The position numbers and the translations under genes were made by a program. Source: Thermoproteus sp. (lineage in GTDB: Archaea > Thermoproteota > Thermoprotei > Thermoproteales > Thermoproteaceae). Taken from it: DNA of 64,000 nucleotides. This document shows positions 35,887-41,444 of the stretch, one piece after another (position 1 is the stretch's first letter; the number at the start of each line of letters is the position of its first letter). The DNA lies in assembly GCA_049976425.1 (NCBI GenBank), contig JBMFIG010000005.1:22644-86643 (forward strand), in the 5' to 3' direction. The notes beneath the pieces were generated by a model that did no database searches, was not told the DNA's origin, and saw only the letters and a list, made by a program, of their open reading frames with translations.

Positions 35887-37482
35887 TTAAAGGAGCGAGG
35901 CGAGCAATAGAGGGGCCAATATCAAATAGACCACCATCAACACGCCCAGTCTCTTGTAGCTCTCCACGACGCTTCTTATCTTGGCGAAATTAGGCCCGAA
36001 CACGTCCGCCTCGACCTCTACCTCTCTATAGGCCGCTCTCTTAGCCCCGAGAGAGCTCTCGGCGGCGGCGACGGCCTTGTTGACTAGCTTGAAGAGCTCC
36101 TCGCGCCTTATGCCGGAGCCGACCACTCTGTAGCCGCCTCCGCCTACGCCCATGCCGGTCGACGCGTGCGTATCCGTAGTAATCGCCTCGACCAAGGCAT
36201 AGGCTTTGCCGAACCTATCCTGTAGCTCCCTATAGAACGAGCCGTCCATGTTGTTTCCGTCGAATATCAACAGAAGGCTCTTCTGCCCGTCGCACTCGGC
36301 GACCACAGCGGCGACTCCGCCCGCTCCTAGCTCAAGCCTTAGCGGATCCACGAGCGAGGAGTCGGCTCTGCCTATCCCCACCTTGAATTCTCGGCAACTC
36401 TCGGGTTTCGCAACGACGTCAAGCGCCTTCTGGAGAGACGACACGTCCTCGTCGCTCCATTTGAGGGGGCCGTCGAACTTGTTCTGGGCGTCTACGATAA
36501 CATAGCCCTTTGCGTCCACCTTCTGCGCCACGTCCAGAGGCACGTCGTCAGAGGCCGAGCTGACTCTAGATATTATCGCCAACGGCGGGCCGACGCCCAG
36601 CGAGTAGGTAGTCAGCCTCACATCGCCGACTTCCAGCCTCTGAGGCCTCACGCCCCTTAACGCGTCCTCCGCCTGCATCGAGGAGGCTACCCTAAATATC
36701 TCGCCGACTATCTTCTCGACGTCATCCGACGATACGGGGTCCCGCTCGTGGCTACCGACGCCGTGGATAAACACCACATCGTAGCCGCTTCTGAGTCCCC
36801 TAGCCACCAGCTTCTCCACAAGGATACCCCCTCCGACGTTCCTAAAAGGCCCGGGATGAAAGTCCGAGACTACTATCAGATGCCTCCTCCCGCCCTCTAT
36901 GAGATATAGATGGATTTTTCCGCGGTCTCTAACTCCCAGAGGCTTGAAGACGTGGTCGAACATGCCCTCGGCGGAGACCGAGGAGTAAAGAAAGCTACTC
37001 AACATGCACAGCGCATCGCCGCCTTTAACCCTACCCGCCAGATATCTCTTCAACAGGGGCATAGACACGGCGTAGGCCGCGGCAACTGCGGCTAGCGCGT
37101 AGTCGTGCAGGTAAAGGTAGTATAGAGGCGTCAGTACCATGGGCACTAGATATACCCTATCTCTGCAACGCAGAGACATAGACATGGAAGAGGCCACGAC
37201 GGAAGAGATGAGTAGATAATGCAGAGGCGGCTTTTCGAGGATTAGATCAAACAGAGCGCCGAGGCCCAGGGCGAACGAGGTGACCTTGAACACGCCGGTC
37301 CGCGTCCACAAGCGGCGTCCGACAAAAAAGAAAAATAGGTAAAATAGTAAAAATGATATTATATATAATGCATTTCTTTTAATAATAATAGTAATTAATA
37401 TAACTGTAAATAAAATATATGACAGTATACTTGGCGCCTCATTGAAGACGTTGCTGTACACCTCCTCGAACGTCCTCTTCAT
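35887..37482 (-). CDS. DUF2070 family membrane protein
   Basis: N-terminal TM segments; HPGPFRNVGG, HGVGSHERD, DAQN, DGNN, TTDTH. Confidence 0.85.
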   Translation of the reverse strand: MKRTFEEVYSNVFNEAPSILSYILFTVILITIIIKRNALYIISFLLFYLFFFFVGRRLWTRTGVFKVTSFALGLGALFDLILEKPPLHYLLISSVVASSMSMSLRCRDRVYLVPMVLTPLYYLYLHDYALAAVAAAYAVSMPLLKRYLAGRVKGGDALCMLSSFLYSSVSAEGMFDHVFKPLGVRDRGKIHLYLIEGGRRHLIVVSDFHPGPFRNVGGGILVEKLVARGLRSGYDVVFIHGVGSHERDPVSSDDVEKIVGEIFRVASSMQAEDALRGVRPQRLEVGDVRLTTYSLGVGPPLAIISRVSSASDDVPLDVAQKVDAKGYVIVDAQNKFDGPLKWSDEDVSSLQKALDVVAKPESCREFKVGIGRADSSLVDPLRLELGAGGVAAVVAECDGQKSLLLIFDGNNMDGSFYRELQDRFGKAYALVEAITTDTHASTGMGVGGGGYRVVGSGIRREELFKLVNKAVAAAESSLGAKRAAYREVEVEADVFGPNFAKIRSVVESYKRLGVLMVVYLILAPLLLASLL

Positions 37483-38351
37483 AGACTTTCAATATATGAG
37501 CGTAAAGCCATTGATTGTGAATGAGATGAGATATATTTACTTAGATATGTGTTATGTTTAGGGAATCTATATATGTATAATGTTTCATTAAGGAGATCCA
37601 GTGCCATGTATCCGCTCGGCGAGATCTCCAACTCGCCGATCCTATTGGCGACAGATCTATGGACTCTGGGATTTACGTGAGGGTGGAGGAGTATCGCGTA
37701 GTCTAAGCCGTATCTCAAATAGTCGTTGATGGCCGAGAAACCCATATGCACCGTCCTCGTAATGTCTAGATACTTAATGCCAATAATATATTTATTTTCT
37801 AATTTTATTAAAATATCTATTTGTGTATTATATTTATTTATTAATTGAGGTATAAATGATATTTTAGTTAGTATCTTCTCTACCTTGCCCCATAGGAAAT
37901 ACCCTGCCGAGCTTATGTATCCCGACAACGCCTCTACGACGTCCCCTCCGCCGATGCCGGAGAGGCTCACGACGTAAGGCCTCTTGATCTGTTGCGTCTC
38001 TTCGTCCTCTATGGGCAGATATTCGAGCAACCGCTCGCTCAGCGCGGTATAGGGCACGTAGTAGAAGTCGCCCAAGCTCTCCGCCAGCCCGGCCCTCGCC
38101 ATGGCTTGTAGCGACGGGCATGGACTGGCCCTGCTGGAGCAGTCTATCAAGAGACTCCCCGAGAGGAAGCCGAAAGCCCTATTCTTTATGTTGTTGCTCC
38201 TTAACGAGGCAAGCGCCTTCAGCGCGTCGCCGGGCACGTCTACTATCTTCTCAAGTATCTTTTCCAAGGGATAGAGCTCGCCGGCTCTCTCGGCCTCGGC
38301 CCTATGATCGGCGGGAGTACACGAGAGCCTCTCGGCGCAGAGCAAGTCCAC
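37479..38351 (-). CDS. Hypothetical protein, 290 aa
   Basis: Long ORF coupled to the DUF2070 gene (ATGA overlap). Confidence 0.72.
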   Translation of the reverse strand: MDLLCAERLSCTPADHRAEAERAGELYPLEKILEKIVDVPGDALKALASLRSNNIKNRAFGFLSGSLLIDCSSRASPCPSLQAMARAGLAESLGDFYYVPYTALSERLLEYLPIEDEETQQIKRPYVVSLSGIGGGDVVEALSGYISSAGYFLWGKVEKILTKISFIPQLINKYNTQIDILIKLENKYIIGIKYLDITRTVHMGFSAINDYLRYGLDYAILLHPHVNPRVHRSVANRIGELEISPSGYMALDLLNETLYIYRFPKHNTYLSKYISSHSQSMALRSYIESL

Positions 38352-38377: not shown

Positions 38378-38428
38378 TCAGACAATCGAGCGCTCTTCAC
38401 GGGTATCTAGCCGGGGATAAATCATCAC
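38378..38428 (-). ncRNA. C/D box sRNA
   Basis: Minus strand: GTGATGA-tttatccccgg-CTAG(A)-taccc-GTGAAGA-gcgctcgattgt-CTGA. Confidence 0.8.
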
Positions 38429-38439
38429 GTGGAGTCCCT

Positions 38440-39036
38440 CTACATGTATTTTAAAAGGCCTCCCTCGCTACCGCCGAGGAATCTTCTCAAGTCCTCCTCG
38501 AGGGTGGTCCTCAGCCTCGGGTTGTAAAGCGCGGCTGCCGGGTGGTACGTTACGCATAACGTGGTCTCGACGCCAGCTATGCGGACCTTGAAGCACCTCC
38601 CCCTCACGTCGGCGATCTTGGCCACTCTACGGCCGGCGAGGGACATCAACGTCCTGGCGCTGTGTACGCCGAGAGCGACTATCAGCCGCGGCCTAATCGC
38701 CGCGATCTGCTCCACTAAATACGGCGTGCATGCGGCTATCTCGTCCTCTAGAGGCTCCCTATTGCCCGGAGGTCGGCACTTGACTACGTTGGTTATGAAG
38801 ACGTCGCGCCCTCTATCTATACCGTATTTAGACAATATACTTGTCAAGAGCTTGCCAGCAGGCCCCACGAAGGGCCTGCCCTCCTCGTCCTCCTTCTCGC
38901 CAGGAGCCTCGCCCACAATCATGACGCCCTTCTCGGCCCTCCCCTCTCCCGGAACCGCCAGCCGCCTTGTCTCGTGCAGTCTGCATCTGGTACATCTGCG
39001 TATCCGCTCAGCTATCTCCAGCAACTTATCGTCCAC
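38440..39036 (-). CDS. udg: Family 4 uracil-DNA glycosylase (Fe-S)
   Basis: CTRCRL, VGEAPG, GRPFVGPAG, TNVVKCRPPGNREP, TYHPAAALY. Confidence 0.94.
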   Translation of the reverse strand: MDDKLLEIAERIRRCTRCRLHETRRLAVPGEGRAEKGVMIVGEAPGEKEDEEGRPFVGPAGKLLTSILSKYGIDRGRDVFITNVVKCRPPGNREPLEDEIAACTPYLVEQIAAIRPRLIVALGVHSARTLMSLAGRRVAKIADVRGRCFKVRIAGVETTLCVTYHPAAALYNPRLRTTLEEDLRRFLGGSEGGLLKYM

Positions 39037-39098
39037 GGACGCCGTTTAATACCGACAATTAACTATTACTCTTTTTATAGCCGACGCGCGCCGGTATC

Positions 39099-39755
39099 GT
39101 GTTCTGGCGGCTGTTCTCGCCCCAGAAGCAGAAAGAGTTGCCGAAGGTTGGGGGGAAGCCCGTGTATATAGGAGGTATGTTGTTCTTGGGCACTGCCGAG
39201 CGCGGCGAGTTCGACGTGCGGAGGCATAAGCTGGTGGCCCTACACATAAGGGACAGCTCAGGCCTTCAGTATAAGCTCGACACCAGCGACGTGAGGGTCA
39301 AGATATCTAAAGAGAGCATAGATCTAGAGATTTCGGCGGTGCCCAAGTTCTTCGAGATAAAGATAAGAGAGCTCAACGATATTGTAAAGAGGCTCGGCGA
39401 CGAGAGGAGGAATATAGAGGACTCGTACAGGAAGCTCGAAGAGGCGTTGATAAGGGGCTCCATCAGCATGCAGATATATGAGGACTCCAAGAAGAGGATT
39501 GCAGAAAAGGAGAAGAGGCTGATAGCCTCCTGCATGGAGGCCGAGAGGAGCTTCGTGAAGATAAACGACGACCTGAAGAGGCTCCTCGGCGACGTGGAAT
39601 CGAAGAGGGAAGCGCTGGAGGCCAAAAGGCTCTTAGACAGACTCGATAGGGGCGAGGAAGACATGCTGGCTAATCTGATAGCTCTGAGAACTAACATAAT
39701 GTCGATAGAGCAGATGCTGAATACCTTATTATTGCAGTTGAGGCTGGTCTGCTAG
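39099..39755 (+). CDS. CdvA-like protein (PRC-barrel-like N-terminus plus coiled coil)
   Basis: GKPVYIGGMLFLGTAE beta-barrel pattern then RKLEEALIRGSISMQIYEDSKKRI helical motif resembling Sulfolobus CdvA; ORF itself is solid, the family call is by eye. Confidence 0.55.
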   Translation: MFWRLFSPQKQKELPKVGGKPVYIGGMLFLGTAERGEFDVRRHKLVALHIRDSSGLQYKLDTSDVRVKISKESIDLEISAVPKFFEIKIRELNDIVKRLGDERRNIEDSYRKLEEALIRGSISMQIYEDSKKRIAEKEKRLIASCMEAERSFVKINDDLKRLLGDVESKREALEAKRLLDRLDRGEEDMLANLIALRTNIMSIEQMLNTLLLQLRLVC

Positions 39756-39958
39756 TCGGCTATATCCACCCCGGCAAAGTCGCTTGGCGGTACGAGGCGT
39801 CCGCCGTCGTCGTAGTACCCGAGCACCGCGTGTTCCCTATTTGCCCTACACTTTCTGCAATATATGTAGATGCGGCCCTTGAAGGCTGTTAAGTTAAAGC
39901 CGACGTCCAGCACGCGCTCGTTGCCGCAGGCGGTGCAACGGAGTAGCCACTTCGTCAT
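39752..39958 (-). CDS. Small zinc-ribbon protein, 68 aa
   Basis: CTAC...CRKC...H; coupled to the upstream ATP-grasp gene. Confidence 0.75.
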   Translation of the reverse strand: MTKWLLRCTACGNERVLDVGFNLTAFKGRIYIYCRKCRANREHAVLGYYDDGGRLVPPSDFAGVDIAD

Positions 39959-40830
39959 TTCTTGAGCGAGGCGATATATTCAACTATATACTGGGCCGGG
40001 TTTATGCCGGTGCTGGACTTGAAGCCTCTCCAGTCGGGGGAGGCGTTGACCTCAAACACCACGTATCCGTCCTTGGCCTCGCCTACGTCGATGCCGGCGT
40101 AGACGAGGCCGAGGGCCTTGGTGGCCCTCACCGCTATATCCTCGAGCTCCGGGTTTAAGGCGCAGGGCTCCGCCCTCGCGCCCTGGGCGATATTGGTCTT
40201 CCACATGGTGGAGATCCTGTACATACAGCCGATGGCCCTGCCGTCGACCACTATAACGCGTATGTCTCTGTTGGGCTTCTCGACATATTTCTGGATATAG
40301 AGCGGGTTGTGGGATATCAAGAGGGTTCTCATGACCTGGAAAGCCAGATCGGGATCTGAAAAGAGCATTGCGCCGAAGCCCCTACTGCCCTGTATAGGCT
40401 TGACGACCACGGTCTCGAGGGCCTTAGTTGCGTTGTACGCGTAGAAGAGGTCCTCCGTGACTACGGTGGGAGGCACCGGTATCTTTGCCTTTCTAAGTAT
40501 GTAGAGGCTCATCAGCTTGTCTCTAGAGGCCATGAGGCCGCGGACGGGGTTTATGGCCGTGGCGCCCTCCTCTTCCAAGATCTCGAGCGTGGTGACTCGC
40601 CTTATCATAGTGTTGGCGTCTAGGAGGAAGCCGATGCCTCGGATGACCACCACGTCGGGCCTTATCGGGCCTCTCCGCGTCTCCACGAAGACGCCGTCTT
40701 GGGACATCCTGACCGACAGCCTTTGGATAGGCGCGTACCTGCTGCTGATCCCCCTCTTCTTTAGCTCCAGCAAGACGTCCCTAGTAGGCTCATCTGGTAT
40801 CGACGACTCGGCGACTACGAGCACCTCCAC
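39955..40830 (-). CDS. RimK/LysX/CofF-family ATP-grasp ligase
   Basis: RDKL, IPVPPT, VVKPIQGSRGFG, QKYVEKPNRDIRV, WKTNIAQG, FEVNASP; GTG start at 40830. Confidence 0.9.
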   Translation of the reverse strand: MEVLVVAESSIPDEPTRDVLLELKKRGISSRYAPIQRLSVRMSQDGVFVETRRGPIRPDVVVIRGIGFLLDANTMIRRVTTLEILEEEGATAINPVRGLMASRDKLMSLYILRKAKIPVPPTVVTEDLFYAYNATKALETVVVKPIQGSRGFGAMLFSDPDLAFQVMRTLLISHNPLYIQKYVEKPNRDIRVIVVDGRAIGCMYRISTMWKTNIAQGARAEPCALNPELEDIAVRATKALGLVYAGIDVGEAKDGYVVFEVNASPDWRGFKSSTGINPAQYIVEYIASLKK

Positions 40831-40907
40831 GGAGGGGCCGTAGTCCAGCTTATATAAGGATAGACGACATACCTCTAGTGAGGCTACGCACAAGTAGTGG
40901 CGTTGCC

Positions 40908-41444
40908 ATGTGCCCCTCCTGCGGATTCGCCATGCCTGGCCTAGATATATGTGAGCTGACTGGTACATGTGTTGAGTGCGCCCGCAAGGCCCTGGGAGAT
41001 ACATGCGCCAGATGTCCCGAGAGATCCCGGTGCGACTCGGCCCTAGAAGGTCTGAGGTTCGTCAAATCGCTTGAGCCCCAGCTGGACGTGTTCGTAGACG
41101 TGTCGCGGAGGGTCGTGAGCAAGGCGGAGAAGTACGGGAGAGTCGATATAGCGGTGGCCTTCATGAAGTCGCTCATGGGGCTCGTGAAGGCATTAAGGAG
41201 CGCGCCGCCGCAAGCGGCCTTCCCCGCATGGGTAGCCGCCATCTTGAGGCGCGATGTTGTGGCCAAATTGACGCGGACGCCATATGTGTTCGCCGGGGAT
41301 TTCTACGAGGAGTTCAAGTGGTTCTGCGCCGAGTTCGGTTGCCGCGGCCTTGAGGCCCCCCTATCCAACCTCCTAGCCTCTATATTGAGCTTGTCGTTGA
41401 TAGAGGGCGTTGCCGATCCGTCTCGCTATTTCAACTACGCCTGA
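40908..41444 (+). CDS. Hypothetical protein with Cys-rich N-terminus
   Basis: CPSC, C-x4-CVEC, CARC...C; start uncertain (40878 or 40908). Confidence 0.7.
   Translation: MCPSCGFAMPGLDICELTGTCVECARKALGDTCARCPERSRCDSALEGLRFVKSLEPQLDVFVDVSRRVVSKAEKYGRVDIAVAFMKSLMGLVKALRSAPPQAAFPAWVAAILRRDVVAKLTRTPYVFAGDFYEEFKWFCAEFGCRGLEAPLSNLLASILSLSLIEGVADPSRYFNYA

What the first reader, a model, noticed from the sequence alone, without database searches (positions are those of the whole stretch)
39099..39755. CdvA-like cell-division protein in a lineage thought to lack Cdv and FtsZ
Seen: a 218-aa protein with an N-terminal beta-rich segment (GGKPVYIGGMLFLGTAERGEFDVRRHKLVALHI) followed by a long coiled coil containing RKLEEALIRGSISMQIYEDSKKRIAEKEKRL. 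Established: Sulfolobus CdvA is a PRC barrel plus coiled coil that recruits ESCRT-III, and Thermoproteales are described as lacking the Cdv/ESCRT system and FtsZ, with their division mechanism unresolved. Inference: from memory the CdvA helix reads roughly RALEELY-x3-I-x3-YDDMKRKL, and the spacing and domain order match. No cdvB or cdvC is adjacent, so this may be an orphan CdvA acting in an ESCRT-independent division or membrane-remodelling system. The MFWRLF N-terminus could be a membrane-binding amphipathic helix.
Basis: partly seen in the sequence, partly recalled or inferred. Interest (0 to 1): 0.85.

Follow-up and report, generated by a model that had tools for sequence, protein, structure and literature searches.

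The report
Tail-less CdvA homolog in Thermoproteus
This gene encodes a diverged relative of the archaeal cell-division protein CdvA in an organism that lacks CdvA's usual partners; such relatives are already in print, but nobody has tested what they do.

Summary
The ORF at 39099-39755 (+), 218 aa with a GTG start, is real, conserved and under purifying selection. An AlphaFold2 model (pLDDT 90.6) shows a small beta-barrel followed by three long helices. Two independent structure searches both rank the 2026 S. islandicus CdvA structures first. A profile-profile comparison with 35 canonical CdvAs gives 96.2% probability over 159 collinear columns, against at most 1.3% for reversed or shuffled controls. 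Intermediate proteins match both this family's profile and Pfam CdvA or PRC. The genome (99.4% complete) shows no ESCRT-III, CdvC/Vps4, FtsZ or SepF. The protein ends right after helix 3 and lacks the linker and E3B peptide by which CdvA binds CdvB. It is not new: Zhao et al. 2023 and Makarova et al. 2024 report CdvA orthologs in Thermoproteales. I also found a conserved GTG start behind a leaderless-type promoter. Function is untested; the best guess is a self-assembling division scaffold.

The parts
39072..39079 (+). TATA-like promoter element (TTTTTATA), beginning 27 nt upstream of the GTG; the geometry fits a leaderless transcript
   Evidence: Read directly. A TATA-like element begins 25-27 nt upstream of the start in 23 of 26 same-family orthologous loci. 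That this spacing means a leaderless mRNA is inferred from general knowledge of archaeal promoters.
39099..39755 (+). CDS of the CdvA homolog, 218 aa, GTG start, TAG stop
39099..39131 (+). N-terminal hydrophobic-basic segment (residues 1-11, MFWRLFSPQKQ), a candidate short amphipathic membrane-binding helix
   Evidence: The segment is conserved in the alignment. pLDDT is below 50 for residues 1-11. Mean helical hydrophobic moment of the first 7 residues is 0.67 in f1 (n=26) against 0.28 in canonical CdvA (n=35); the own value of 0.71 was reached by 0.65% of 2000 shuffles. The membrane role is inferred.
39150..39329 (+). PRC-barrel domain (about residues 18-77)
   Evidence: Strands at 21-76. 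Foldseek matches PRC barrels (reaction-centre H subunit, 8onw_C, 1pm3_A) over 60-70 columns at 3.0-3.4 A with probability 1.00. Distant full-length relatives P0070, P0071, P0072 and P0074 pass Pfam PRC's cut-off. hhalign of this part alone against CdvA gives 63.7%.
39330..39749 (+). Three-helix CdvA-type coiled-coil domain (helices 78-118, 124-178, 184-217)
   Evidence: VIA-align ranks 9s9g_A first: Z 13.1, rmsd 3.0 A, 129 residues, model 90-218 against chain 68-197. hhalign result.
39429..39521 (+). Signature segment at the helix 1 / helix 2 turn (residues 111-141), holding the invariant G120 and I122
   Evidence: It aligns without gaps to the CdvA turn motif. I122 corresponds to SiCdvA I100, a filament-interface residue. 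Invariant columns are listed.
39531..39533 (+). Cys145 codon (TGC), in helix 2
   Evidence: Invariant in A2 (16 of 16). Present in 35 of 35 f1+f3 orthologs and 0 of 7 more distant relatives.
39750..39752 (+). Cys218 codon (TGC), the last residue, at the end of helix 3
   Evidence: A Cys within the last 7 residues occurs in 35 of 35 f1+f3 orthologs and 1 of 7 distant relatives. Its position next to Cys145 is inferred from antiparallel helix arithmetic on the secondary structure; no coordinates were available.

Best explanation
The gene encodes a diverged homolog, probably the ortholog, of the archaeal division protein CdvA. It has an N-terminal PRC barrel and the CdvA three-helix coiled-coil domain, but it stops where the ordered CdvA core stops, so it has no flexible linker and no E3B peptide for binding ESCRT-III (CdvB). 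The genome has no detectable ESCRT-III, CdvC/Vps4, FtsZ or SepF. Shown: the fold, the homology, the missing tail, the missing partners, conservation across the order, and purifying selection. Inferred: like CdvA, it self-assembles through its PRC and coiled-coil surfaces into filaments that act as an early, non-contractile scaffold of the still unknown Thermoproteales division machinery. Also inferred: the conserved N-terminal hydrophobic-basic segment may tether it to the membrane directly, and Cys145 and Cys218 may staple helix 3 to helix 2 by a disulfide. I put the homology at about 0.9 and the scaffold-in-division mechanism at about 0.5.
For: Structure: the AF2 model has pLDDT 90.6 and pTM 0.78. 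Foldseek ranks 1-9 are all S. islandicus CdvA chains (9s9i, 9s9g): E 1.6e-5 to 6.6e-4, 194-205 columns, TM 0.47-0.57. Rank 10 (CorA) has TM 0.23. VIA-align against 48,161 chains, independent of Foldseek, also ranks 9s9g_A first (Z 13.1, rmsd 3.0 A, 129 residues; next Z 11.2).
Sequence: hhalign of the 16-row family alignment A2 against 35 canonical CdvAs gives 96.2%, E 2.7e-9, over 159 collinear columns spanning the barrel and helices 1-2. The reversed-profile control gives 1.3%, and five column shuffles give at most 0.6%.
Bridges: P0070, P0071, P0072 and P0074 (E 5e-8 to 1.5e-5 to the family profile) pass Pfam PRC's cut-off. Single ORFs in G017, G015, G016 and G046 are hit by both A2 and Pfam CdvA; the G017 ORF scores 30.7 bits, above the cut-off.
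Phyletic complementarity among 120 genomes of the class: the family is in f1 25/28 and f3 24/31; Pfam CdvA is in f1 0/28, f3 1/31 and f4 9/9; Snf7 is in f1 0/28, f3 1/31 and f4 8/9.
Tail: all 35 canonical CdvAs carry a linker plus a terminal beta-type motif, and the solved construct's ordered core ends at about residue 197, which corresponds to our residue 218.
Interface: SiCdvA filament residues A90, L94, I100, I149, M153 and I156 map to K112, A116, I122, E171, A175 and L178. The register agrees between hhalign and VIA. I122 is I in 39 of the 42 orthologs and relatives tabulated.
Selection: dN/dS is 0.10-0.14.
Literature: the same conclusion about Thermoproteales CdvA orthologs is in passages of Zhao 2023 and Makarova 2024.
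Against: The protein itself hits neither Pfam CdvA nor Pfam PRC at E<=10, nor any PDB sequence significantly.
The narrow Thermoproteaceae alignment A1 alone gives only 14% in hhalign, and each domain alone gives 54-64%.
By the tool's own note, Z values up to about 13 are common among helical bundles, and the Foldseek full-length rmsd is 10.6 A.
Two of the six mapped filament-interface positions are charged (K112, E171).
The family was not found in 3 of 28 f1 genomes (both g3 genomes and one 73% complete genome) and 7 of 31 f3 genomes, including a 99% complete single-contig one.
Pfam Snf7 is insensitive for archaeal ESCRT-III: its control rings in Sulfolobus only below the cut-off. 'No ESCRT-III' therefore means 'not found with this model'.
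There are no localisation, expression or interaction data. The gene is not next to the actin-family gene, which is on contig C1, and a 2024 review (passages) still names crenactin as the most likely division machinery.
The Zhao and Makarova supplementary tables could not be opened, so identity with their listed proteins is inferred.
Confidence: 0.55

Rival explanations
1. It is a true CdvA homolog but has been redeployed outside cytokinesis, for example in vesicle budding, virus egress, or nucleoid or DNA organisation. Division would then be driven by crenactin and the arcadins or by something unknown.
For: It lacks the only CdvA element with a defined division partner, the E3B tail. There is no cdv operon context; the neighbours are a DNA glycosylase and a RimK-type ligase. 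The 2024 review passage favours crenactin. The CdvAB structure paper notes an earlier report that M. sedula CdvA filaments needed DNA, and that the role of CdvA in ring initiation is still enigmatic.
Against: [quoted passage not shown] The gene is single-copy and near-universal in two families that lack every other known division system. Makarova 2024 reports that experiments on crenactin and the arcadins were inconclusive.
Confidence: 0.25
2. It is a PRC-barrel adaptor of the CdpB type, which only recruits other proteins through its barrel and does not polymerise. On this view the helical domain is a dimerisation stalk.
For: The barrel matches CdpB-type PRC structures (8onw_C at TMt 0.56, 1pm3_A at TMt 0.60). 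Zhao 2023 proposes that PRC barrels act as recruiters. Two of the six filament-interface positions are not hydrophobic.
Against: The CdpB partner SepF, and FtsZ, were not found. The whole three-helix domain, not only the barrel, matches CdpB's relative CdvA and ranks CdvA first. I122, A116, A175 and L178 keep hydrophobic or small character, and the f3 orthologs are more hydrophobic still at these positions.
Confidence: 0.12
3. The resemblance is convergent: an unrelated beta-barrel fused to a generic coiled coil.
For: There are no direct Pfam or PDB sequence hits. Coiled coils inflate structural and profile scores (note).
Against: The collinear two-domain hhalign match scores 96.2% with clean reversed and shuffled controls. 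Bridging ORFs are hit by both profiles. The phyletic distribution is complementary to canonical CdvA. The signature turn motif aligns without gaps.
Confidence: 0.05

Closest known systems
Diverged CdvA orthologs of Thermoproteales (expanded arCOG04054; Zhao et al. 2023 bioRxiv 10.1101/2023.03.28.534520; Makarova et al. 2024 mBio, PMC10936438)
   Same: The same lineage, the same architecture (PRC barrel plus CdvA helical domain), the same 'almost all Thermoproteales' distribution, and the same inference of a role in the unknown division system (passages; my survey).
   Different: None shown. I could not open their supplementary tables, so I cannot confirm that their accessions are this family. 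Their main texts contain no occurrence of 'E3B', 'amphipathic' or 'cysteine', so the missing tail, the N-terminal motif and the Cys pair described here appear not to be discussed there.
Canonical CdvA of Sulfolobales (Pfam PF18822; PDB 9s9g, 9s9h, 9s9i; Drobnic et al. 2026, PMC12818579)
   Same: [quoted passage not shown] The turn motif is shared, and I100 corresponds to I122. CdvA is the top structural match in two independent searches.
   Different: About 12% identity. No linker or E3B peptide. No CdvB or CdvC in the genome. An extra hydrophobic-basic N-terminus: the paper's discussion saw no membrane-binding region on CdvA filaments. A lineage-specific Cys pair. Two charged residues at mapped filament-interface positions.
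CdpB1/2/3 PRC-barrel division proteins of Haloferax (Zhao 2023; Nussbaum et al. 2023 preprint, search listing only)
   Same: A PRC barrel, and a link to cell division.
   Different: By my recollection and the 76-residue 8onw_C chain, CdpB proteins are essentially barrel-only, and they work through SepF and FtsZ. Neither SepF nor FtsZ was found here. Our protein also carries the CdvA helical domain.
arCOG03733 / arCOG03734, CdvA-related paralog pair of Thermoproteales (Makarova 2024)
   Same: A lineage-specific pair with a CdvA-like helical hairpin. A candidate pair exists in this genome at contig C37:2663-3948 (-), with the same L-x2-L-x3-G-x-I-S-x3-Y type motif.
   Different: As described, those proteins have no PRC barrel, and one has an N-terminal Zn ribbon and a long coiled coil. 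Our protein has the barrel, so it is the CdvA ortholog and not one of these. The C37 assignment is tentative: single-sequence hhalign gives only 9-14%.

Membership tests
CdvA (structure-defined: PDB 9s9g / Pfam PF18822) | N-terminal PRC-barrel domain | tested here: met
   Strands at 21-76. Foldseek matches PRC barrels at 3.0-3.4 A over 60-70 columns with probability 1.00. Distant family members pass Pfam PRC's cut-off. The protein itself does not hit Pfam PRC.
CdvA (structure-defined: PDB 9s9g / Pfam PF18822) | Three-helix coiled-coil domain following the barrel, by structure and by profile-profile comparison | tested here: met
   9s9g and 9s9i rank first in Foldseek and VIA-align (Z 13.1, rmsd 3.0 A, 129 residues). 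hhalign gives 96.2% with clean controls.
CdvA (structure-defined: PDB 9s9g / Pfam PF18822) | Direct match to the Pfam CdvA model above its gathering score | tested here: not met
   There is no PF18822 hit at E<=10 for the protein or in the whole genome at E<=1e-3. The control rings in Sulfolobus.
CdvA (structure-defined: PDB 9s9g / Pfam PF18822) | C-terminal flexible linker and E3B peptide that binds the CdvB winged helix | tested here: not met
   The protein ends at residue 218, which corresponds to about residue 197 of the solved chain. All 35 canonical CdvAs examined carry the linker and the terminal motif. All 35 f1+f3 orthologs end within about 5 residues of the terminal Cys.
CdvA (structure-defined: PDB 9s9g / Pfam PF18822) | [quoted passage not shown] | tested here: not met
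   No Snf7 hit. The only Vps4_C hit is the D2 half of a CDC48-type ATPase (529.6 bits to CDC48; CdvC 233.9 against a cut-off of 650). Caveat: the Pfam Snf7 control scores below the cut-off even in Sulfolobus.
CdvA (structure-defined: PDB 9s9g / Pfam PF18822) | Polymerisation into double-stranded filaments through hydrophobic coiled-coil contacts | tested here: inconclusive
   Only a residue mapping was possible. 4 of the 6 SiCdvA interface positions are hydrophobic or small (A116, I122, A175, L178) and 2 are charged (K112, E171).
CdvA (structure-defined: PDB 9s9g / Pfam PF18822) | Mid-cell ring localisation and a role in cytokinesis | not testable with these tools
   This needs microscopy in a Thermoproteales species. 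No such study turned up.
CdpB-type PRC-barrel division adaptors | Works with SepF and FtsZ | tested here: not met
   No SepF and no tubulin/FtsZ in the 99.4% complete genome. Both controls ring in FtsZ-using archaea.

The most novel reading that the evidence does not exclude
In the order that lost ESCRT-III, CdvA has become an autonomous membrane cytoskeleton. It shed the CdvB-binding tail. It gained its own short N-terminal amphipathic membrane anchor, of the kind that ESCRT-III/CdvB paralogs use and that canonical CdvA lacks. It also gained a Cys145-Cys218 staple. On this reading it is the core filament of the long-sought Thermoproteales division ring, possibly working with the C37 CdvA-related pair. 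The three features co-occur in 35 of 35 orthologs of the two ESCRT-less families and in none of the 7 more distant relatives examined.
Probability: 0.2. Interest if true: 0.8.

Novelty: already known. Interest (0 to 1): 0.4.

Why it matters
How Thermoproteales divide without FtsZ or ESCRT-III is a standing open question, and a 2024 review passage still calls the mechanism undiscovered and favours crenactin. A conserved, single-copy CdvA homolog gives a concrete handle for localisation, polymerisation and pull-down experiments. With the 2026 CdvA structure, precise interface mutants can now be designed. The existence of the homolog is already published. What this analysis adds is the anatomy that separates it from canonical CdvA: no E3B tail, a candidate membrane anchor, a Cys pair, and a conserved GTG start on a leaderless-type promoter. 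Each of these features is a testable prediction.

Tried and rejected
1. Complex prediction with two copies of the protein (alignment A1) returned 'no answer' with score 0.00, and the controls were not run. This is no evidence either way.
2. The look-up of sequencing runs (kind rna) for window 38400-40000 listed no RNA holder. Expression and the transcript start remain untested.
3. The search of earlier findings near the locus showed nothing.
4. The second hits of about 400 aa in genus g2 to the helical part of the family profile turned out to be signal-peptide / coiled-coil / transmembrane proteins (L048, L049). I rejected them as coiled-coil noise.
5. The Pfam Vps4_C hit on contig C40 is a CDC48 fragment cut by the contig end. 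I rejected it as CdvC.
6. The single Pfam CdvA hit in family f3 (G072, 145 bits) lies on a contig of about 2.5 kb in a 470-contig genome, and it resembles the CdvAs of another family. I treated it as probable contamination, which is not proven.
7. I considered whether the C-terminal QLRLVC is an E3B-like strand. I rejected this because it is modelled as helix at pLDDT 93 and aligns within helix 3 of the solved chain.
8. The search for related loci with the wide alignment A2 failed for lack of a conserved stretch. With A1 it returned 14 named loci, all Thermoproteus, Pyrobaculum or unclassified Thermoproteaceae/Thermoproteales.
9. The Cys145-Cys218 distance could not be measured, because model coordinates are not exposed. 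The juxtaposition rests on helix arithmetic only.
10. Single-sequence hhalign of the C37 pair against the CdvA profiles was weak at 6-14%.

Full report
OBSERVATION. The window holds an ORF at 39099-39755 on the + strand, 218 aa, starting with GTG and ending with TAG. The closest named relatives come from Thermoproteus, then Pyrobaculum, and all are annotated as hypothetical. The gene model is sound for four reasons. Residues 1-26 are conserved across genera. GTG sits at the same position in 31 of 34 orthologs, including all 26 of the same family. A TATA-like element begins 25-27 nt upstream in 23 of those 26 loci. dN/dS against four same-genus orthologs is 0.10-0.14; of six pairs tried, one was dropped for a length difference and one had saturated dS.

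WHAT IT IS: SEQUENCE. The protein alone hits nothing meaningful in Pfam, NCBIfam or PDB sequences, only weak coiled-coil noise. The Pfam CdvA and PRC models find nothing in the whole genome. An exhaustive profile search with 18 family members found 12 proteins at E<=1e-3, including full-length relatives of 214-231 aa. Four of these (P0070, P0071, P0072, P0074) pass Pfam's PRC-barrel cut-off. A 16-row alignment including them (A2) was compared by hhalign with 35 canonical CdvAs cut from genomes of the phylum. The result was probability 96.2%, E 2.7e-9, over 159 collinear columns from the barrel through helices 1 and 2. Controls were a reversed CdvA profile at 1.3% and five column-shuffled profiles at no more than 0.6%. 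The narrow Thermoproteaceae-only alignment reaches just 14%, which explains why routine annotation misses the family. In other families of the class, single ORFs are hit at the same place by both the family profile and Pfam CdvA: G017, G015, G016 and G046, with the G017 ORF at 30.7 bits, above the cut-off.

WHAT IT IS: STRUCTURE. The AlphaFold2 model is confident (pLDDT 90.6, pTM 0.78). It has strands at 21-76 and helices at 78-118, 124-178 and 184-217, and only residues 1-11 are of low confidence. Foldseek against the PDB puts nine S. islandicus CdvA chains (9s9i, 9s9g; released January 2026) at ranks 1-9, aligned over 194-205 columns with TM 0.47-0.57. The next hit is CorA at TM 0.23, followed by PRC barrels. 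VIA-align, which does not rely on Foldseek, also ranks 9s9g_A first of 48,161 chains (Z 13.1, rmsd 3.0 A, 129 residues), about 2 Z units above designed helical proteins. The tool warns that such Z values are common for helical bundles, so I do not lean on this result alone. According to the structure paper (sections read), CdvA is a PRC domain, a three-helix coiled coil, a flexible linker and the E3B peptide, and it forms antiparallel double-stranded filaments.

HOW IT DIFFERS FROM CdvA.
1. No tail. The model's last residue aligns to about residue 197 of the solved chain, and the crystallised core construct was residues 1-205. All 35 canonical CdvAs carry a low-complexity linker and a terminal beta-type motif. 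None of the 35 orthologs in families f1 and f3 carries either.
2. No partners. Snf7, tubulin/FtsZ and SepF were not found in the 99.4% complete genome. The one Vps4_C hit is the second half of a CDC48-type ATPase cut by a contig end. Caveat: the Pfam Snf7 control scores below its cut-off even in Sulfolobus.
3. An extra N-terminus. The first 7 residues have a mean helical hydrophobic moment of 0.67 in f1 against 0.28 in canonical CdvA. Positions 2-7 hold about 4 hydrophobic residues and no acidic ones, and positions 2-12 hold about 2.4 basic residues. The structure paper states that CdvA filaments show no membrane-binding region, while CdvB paralogs bind membranes through N-terminal amphipathic helices of 9-11 residues.
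4. A Cys pair. Cys145 and a Cys within the last 7 residues occur in 35 of 35 f1+f3 orthologs. Among 7 more distant relatives, Cys145 occurs in none and a C-terminal Cys in one. Helix 3 runs antiparallel to helix 2, so residue 218 should lie beside residue 144-145. This is arithmetic, not a measured distance. These genomes are related to one another, so the co-occurrence probably reflects a single evolutionary event.

FILAMENT INTERFACE. The six residues whose mutation abolishes SiCdvA polymerisation (A90, L94, I100, I149, M153, I156) map to K112, A116, I122, E171, A175 and L178. The mapping uses a gapless ortholog-to-chain alignment, the hhalign register and the matching VIA offset. Four positions are hydrophobic or small and two are charged. 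In f3 the equivalent positions are more hydrophobic. This is compatible with retained self-assembly but does not prove it.

DISTRIBUTION. Among 120 genomes of the class, the family is found in 86. By family the counts are f1 25/28, f3 24/31, f15 20/23 (weak matches) and f4 1/9. Misses include both genomes of genus g3, four of six in g6 and three of four in g8, some of them complete genomes, so either loss or divergence beyond detection occurs. Pfam CdvA is found in f1 0/28, f3 1/31 (a short contig in a fragmented genome, probably contamination) and f4 9/9. Snf7 is found in f1 0/28, f3 1/31 (below the cut-off), f4 8/9 and f5 3/3. In a sample of the phylum, Pfam CdvA is in 119 of 201 genomes, but in 0 of 16 f1 and 0 of 8 f3 genomes. 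The complementary pattern fits orthology with divergence after the loss of ESCRT-III.

CONTEXT. The gene is transcribed divergently from a family-4 uracil-DNA glycosylase. It converges on a 68-aa Zn-ribbon gene (4-bp overlap), which is followed by a RimK-family glutamate ligase. Of 34 orthologous loci, the ligase and the Zn-ribbon gene are adjacent in 32 and the glycosylase in 30. The Zn-ribbon protein has a conserved acidic C-terminus, so it is probably the ligase's own carrier or substrate. I see no evidence tying the pair to CdvA. The genome's actin-family gene lies on another contig.

LITERATURE. Zhao et al. 2023 (passages) state that they expanded arCOG04054 (CdvA) with orthologs in several Thermoproteales genomes, and that this implies PRC barrels are near-universal in archaeal division. 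Makarova et al. 2024 (passages) say such orthologs occur in almost all Thermoproteales. They add two CdvA-related families, arCOG03733 and arCOG03734, which are adjacent genes, one with a Zn ribbon. A candidate pair fitting that description lies at contig C37:2663-3948 (-) of this genome, though support is weak. Neither main text contains 'E3B', 'amphipathic' or 'cysteine'. Searches for experimental follow-up found none in the held library, and a 2024 review passage still favours crenactin. The supplements were closed, so I cannot check accession numbers.

VERDICT. I put the homology at about 0.9. The mechanism is self-assembly into a membrane-associated scaffold for an ESCRT-independent division apparatus, with a possible N-terminal anchor and a disulfide staple. 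It is inferred, and I put it at about 0.5. Interest is moderate: the question it bears on is open and now directly testable, but the key discovery belongs to earlier papers.

Noticed in passing
window 39752-41004 (-): A 68-aa CxxC...CxxC Zn-ribbon protein with a conserved acidic C-terminus lies directly upstream of, and co-oriented with, a RimK-family alpha-L-glutamate ligase. The ligase's best NCBIfam match is MptN-like, below the cut-off, while rimK_fam is above it. The pair sits next to the CdvA homolog in 32 of 34 orthologous loci across two families. It looks like a LysW/LysX-style carrier-ligase pair of unknown substrate.
   Followed up: partly
own genome contig C37:2663-3948 (-), outside the window: Two adjacent ORFs are the next-best hits to the helical-domain profile. 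The upstream ORF has an N-terminal 4-Cys motif, a Q-rich linker, a long coiled coil and a C-terminal CdvA-type turn motif. The downstream ORF has the motif but no Cys cluster. They fit the published description of arCOG03733 and arCOG03734 and are candidate partners.
   Followed up: partly
window 39054-39098 and the orthologous loci L003-L027: All 26 same-family orthologs start with GTG, not ATG, about 25 nt after a TATA-like box, and conserved sequence blocks lie further upstream. In the 17 loci with 216-223-aa orthologs (L003-L008, L011, L014-L018, L020, L021, L023, L024, L027; presumably Pyrobaculum) the block is ATCTTAA-like (including CTTAA/CTTGA variants) at about -42 to -33; L026 has only a CTTG remnant. 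In 7 of the 9 loci with 217-218-aa orthologs (own locus L002, L009, L010, L012, L013, L019, L025; presumably Thermoproteus) the block is TTAACTA-like; L022 has no clear match. A conserved non-AUG start on a probably leaderless mRNA hints at deliberately low or regulated translation.
   Followed up: partly
G041, G046-G050, G037, G023, G015, G016, G028 (loci not fetched): ORFs of about 1,085-1,140 aa in several families of the class that lack Snf7 hits carry a segment matching Pfam CdvA (20-30 bits). These are large proteins with an embedded CdvA-like hairpin.
   Followed up: no
L038, L039, L040 (G017, G015, G016): These bridging relatives have a PRC barrel, the helical domain and an acidic Glu/Asp-rich tail of 60-80 residues, in genomes without Snf7 hits. 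They resemble the Glu-rich CdvA-like proteins that Makarova et al. mention for Bathyarchaea.
   Followed up: partly
window 35887-37482 (-) and 37479-38351 (-): A DUF2070 membrane protein (531 aa) overlaps by 4 bp a 290-aa protein with no family match. The 290-aa protein is also syntenic in 24 of 29 loci (L003-L031).
   Followed up: no
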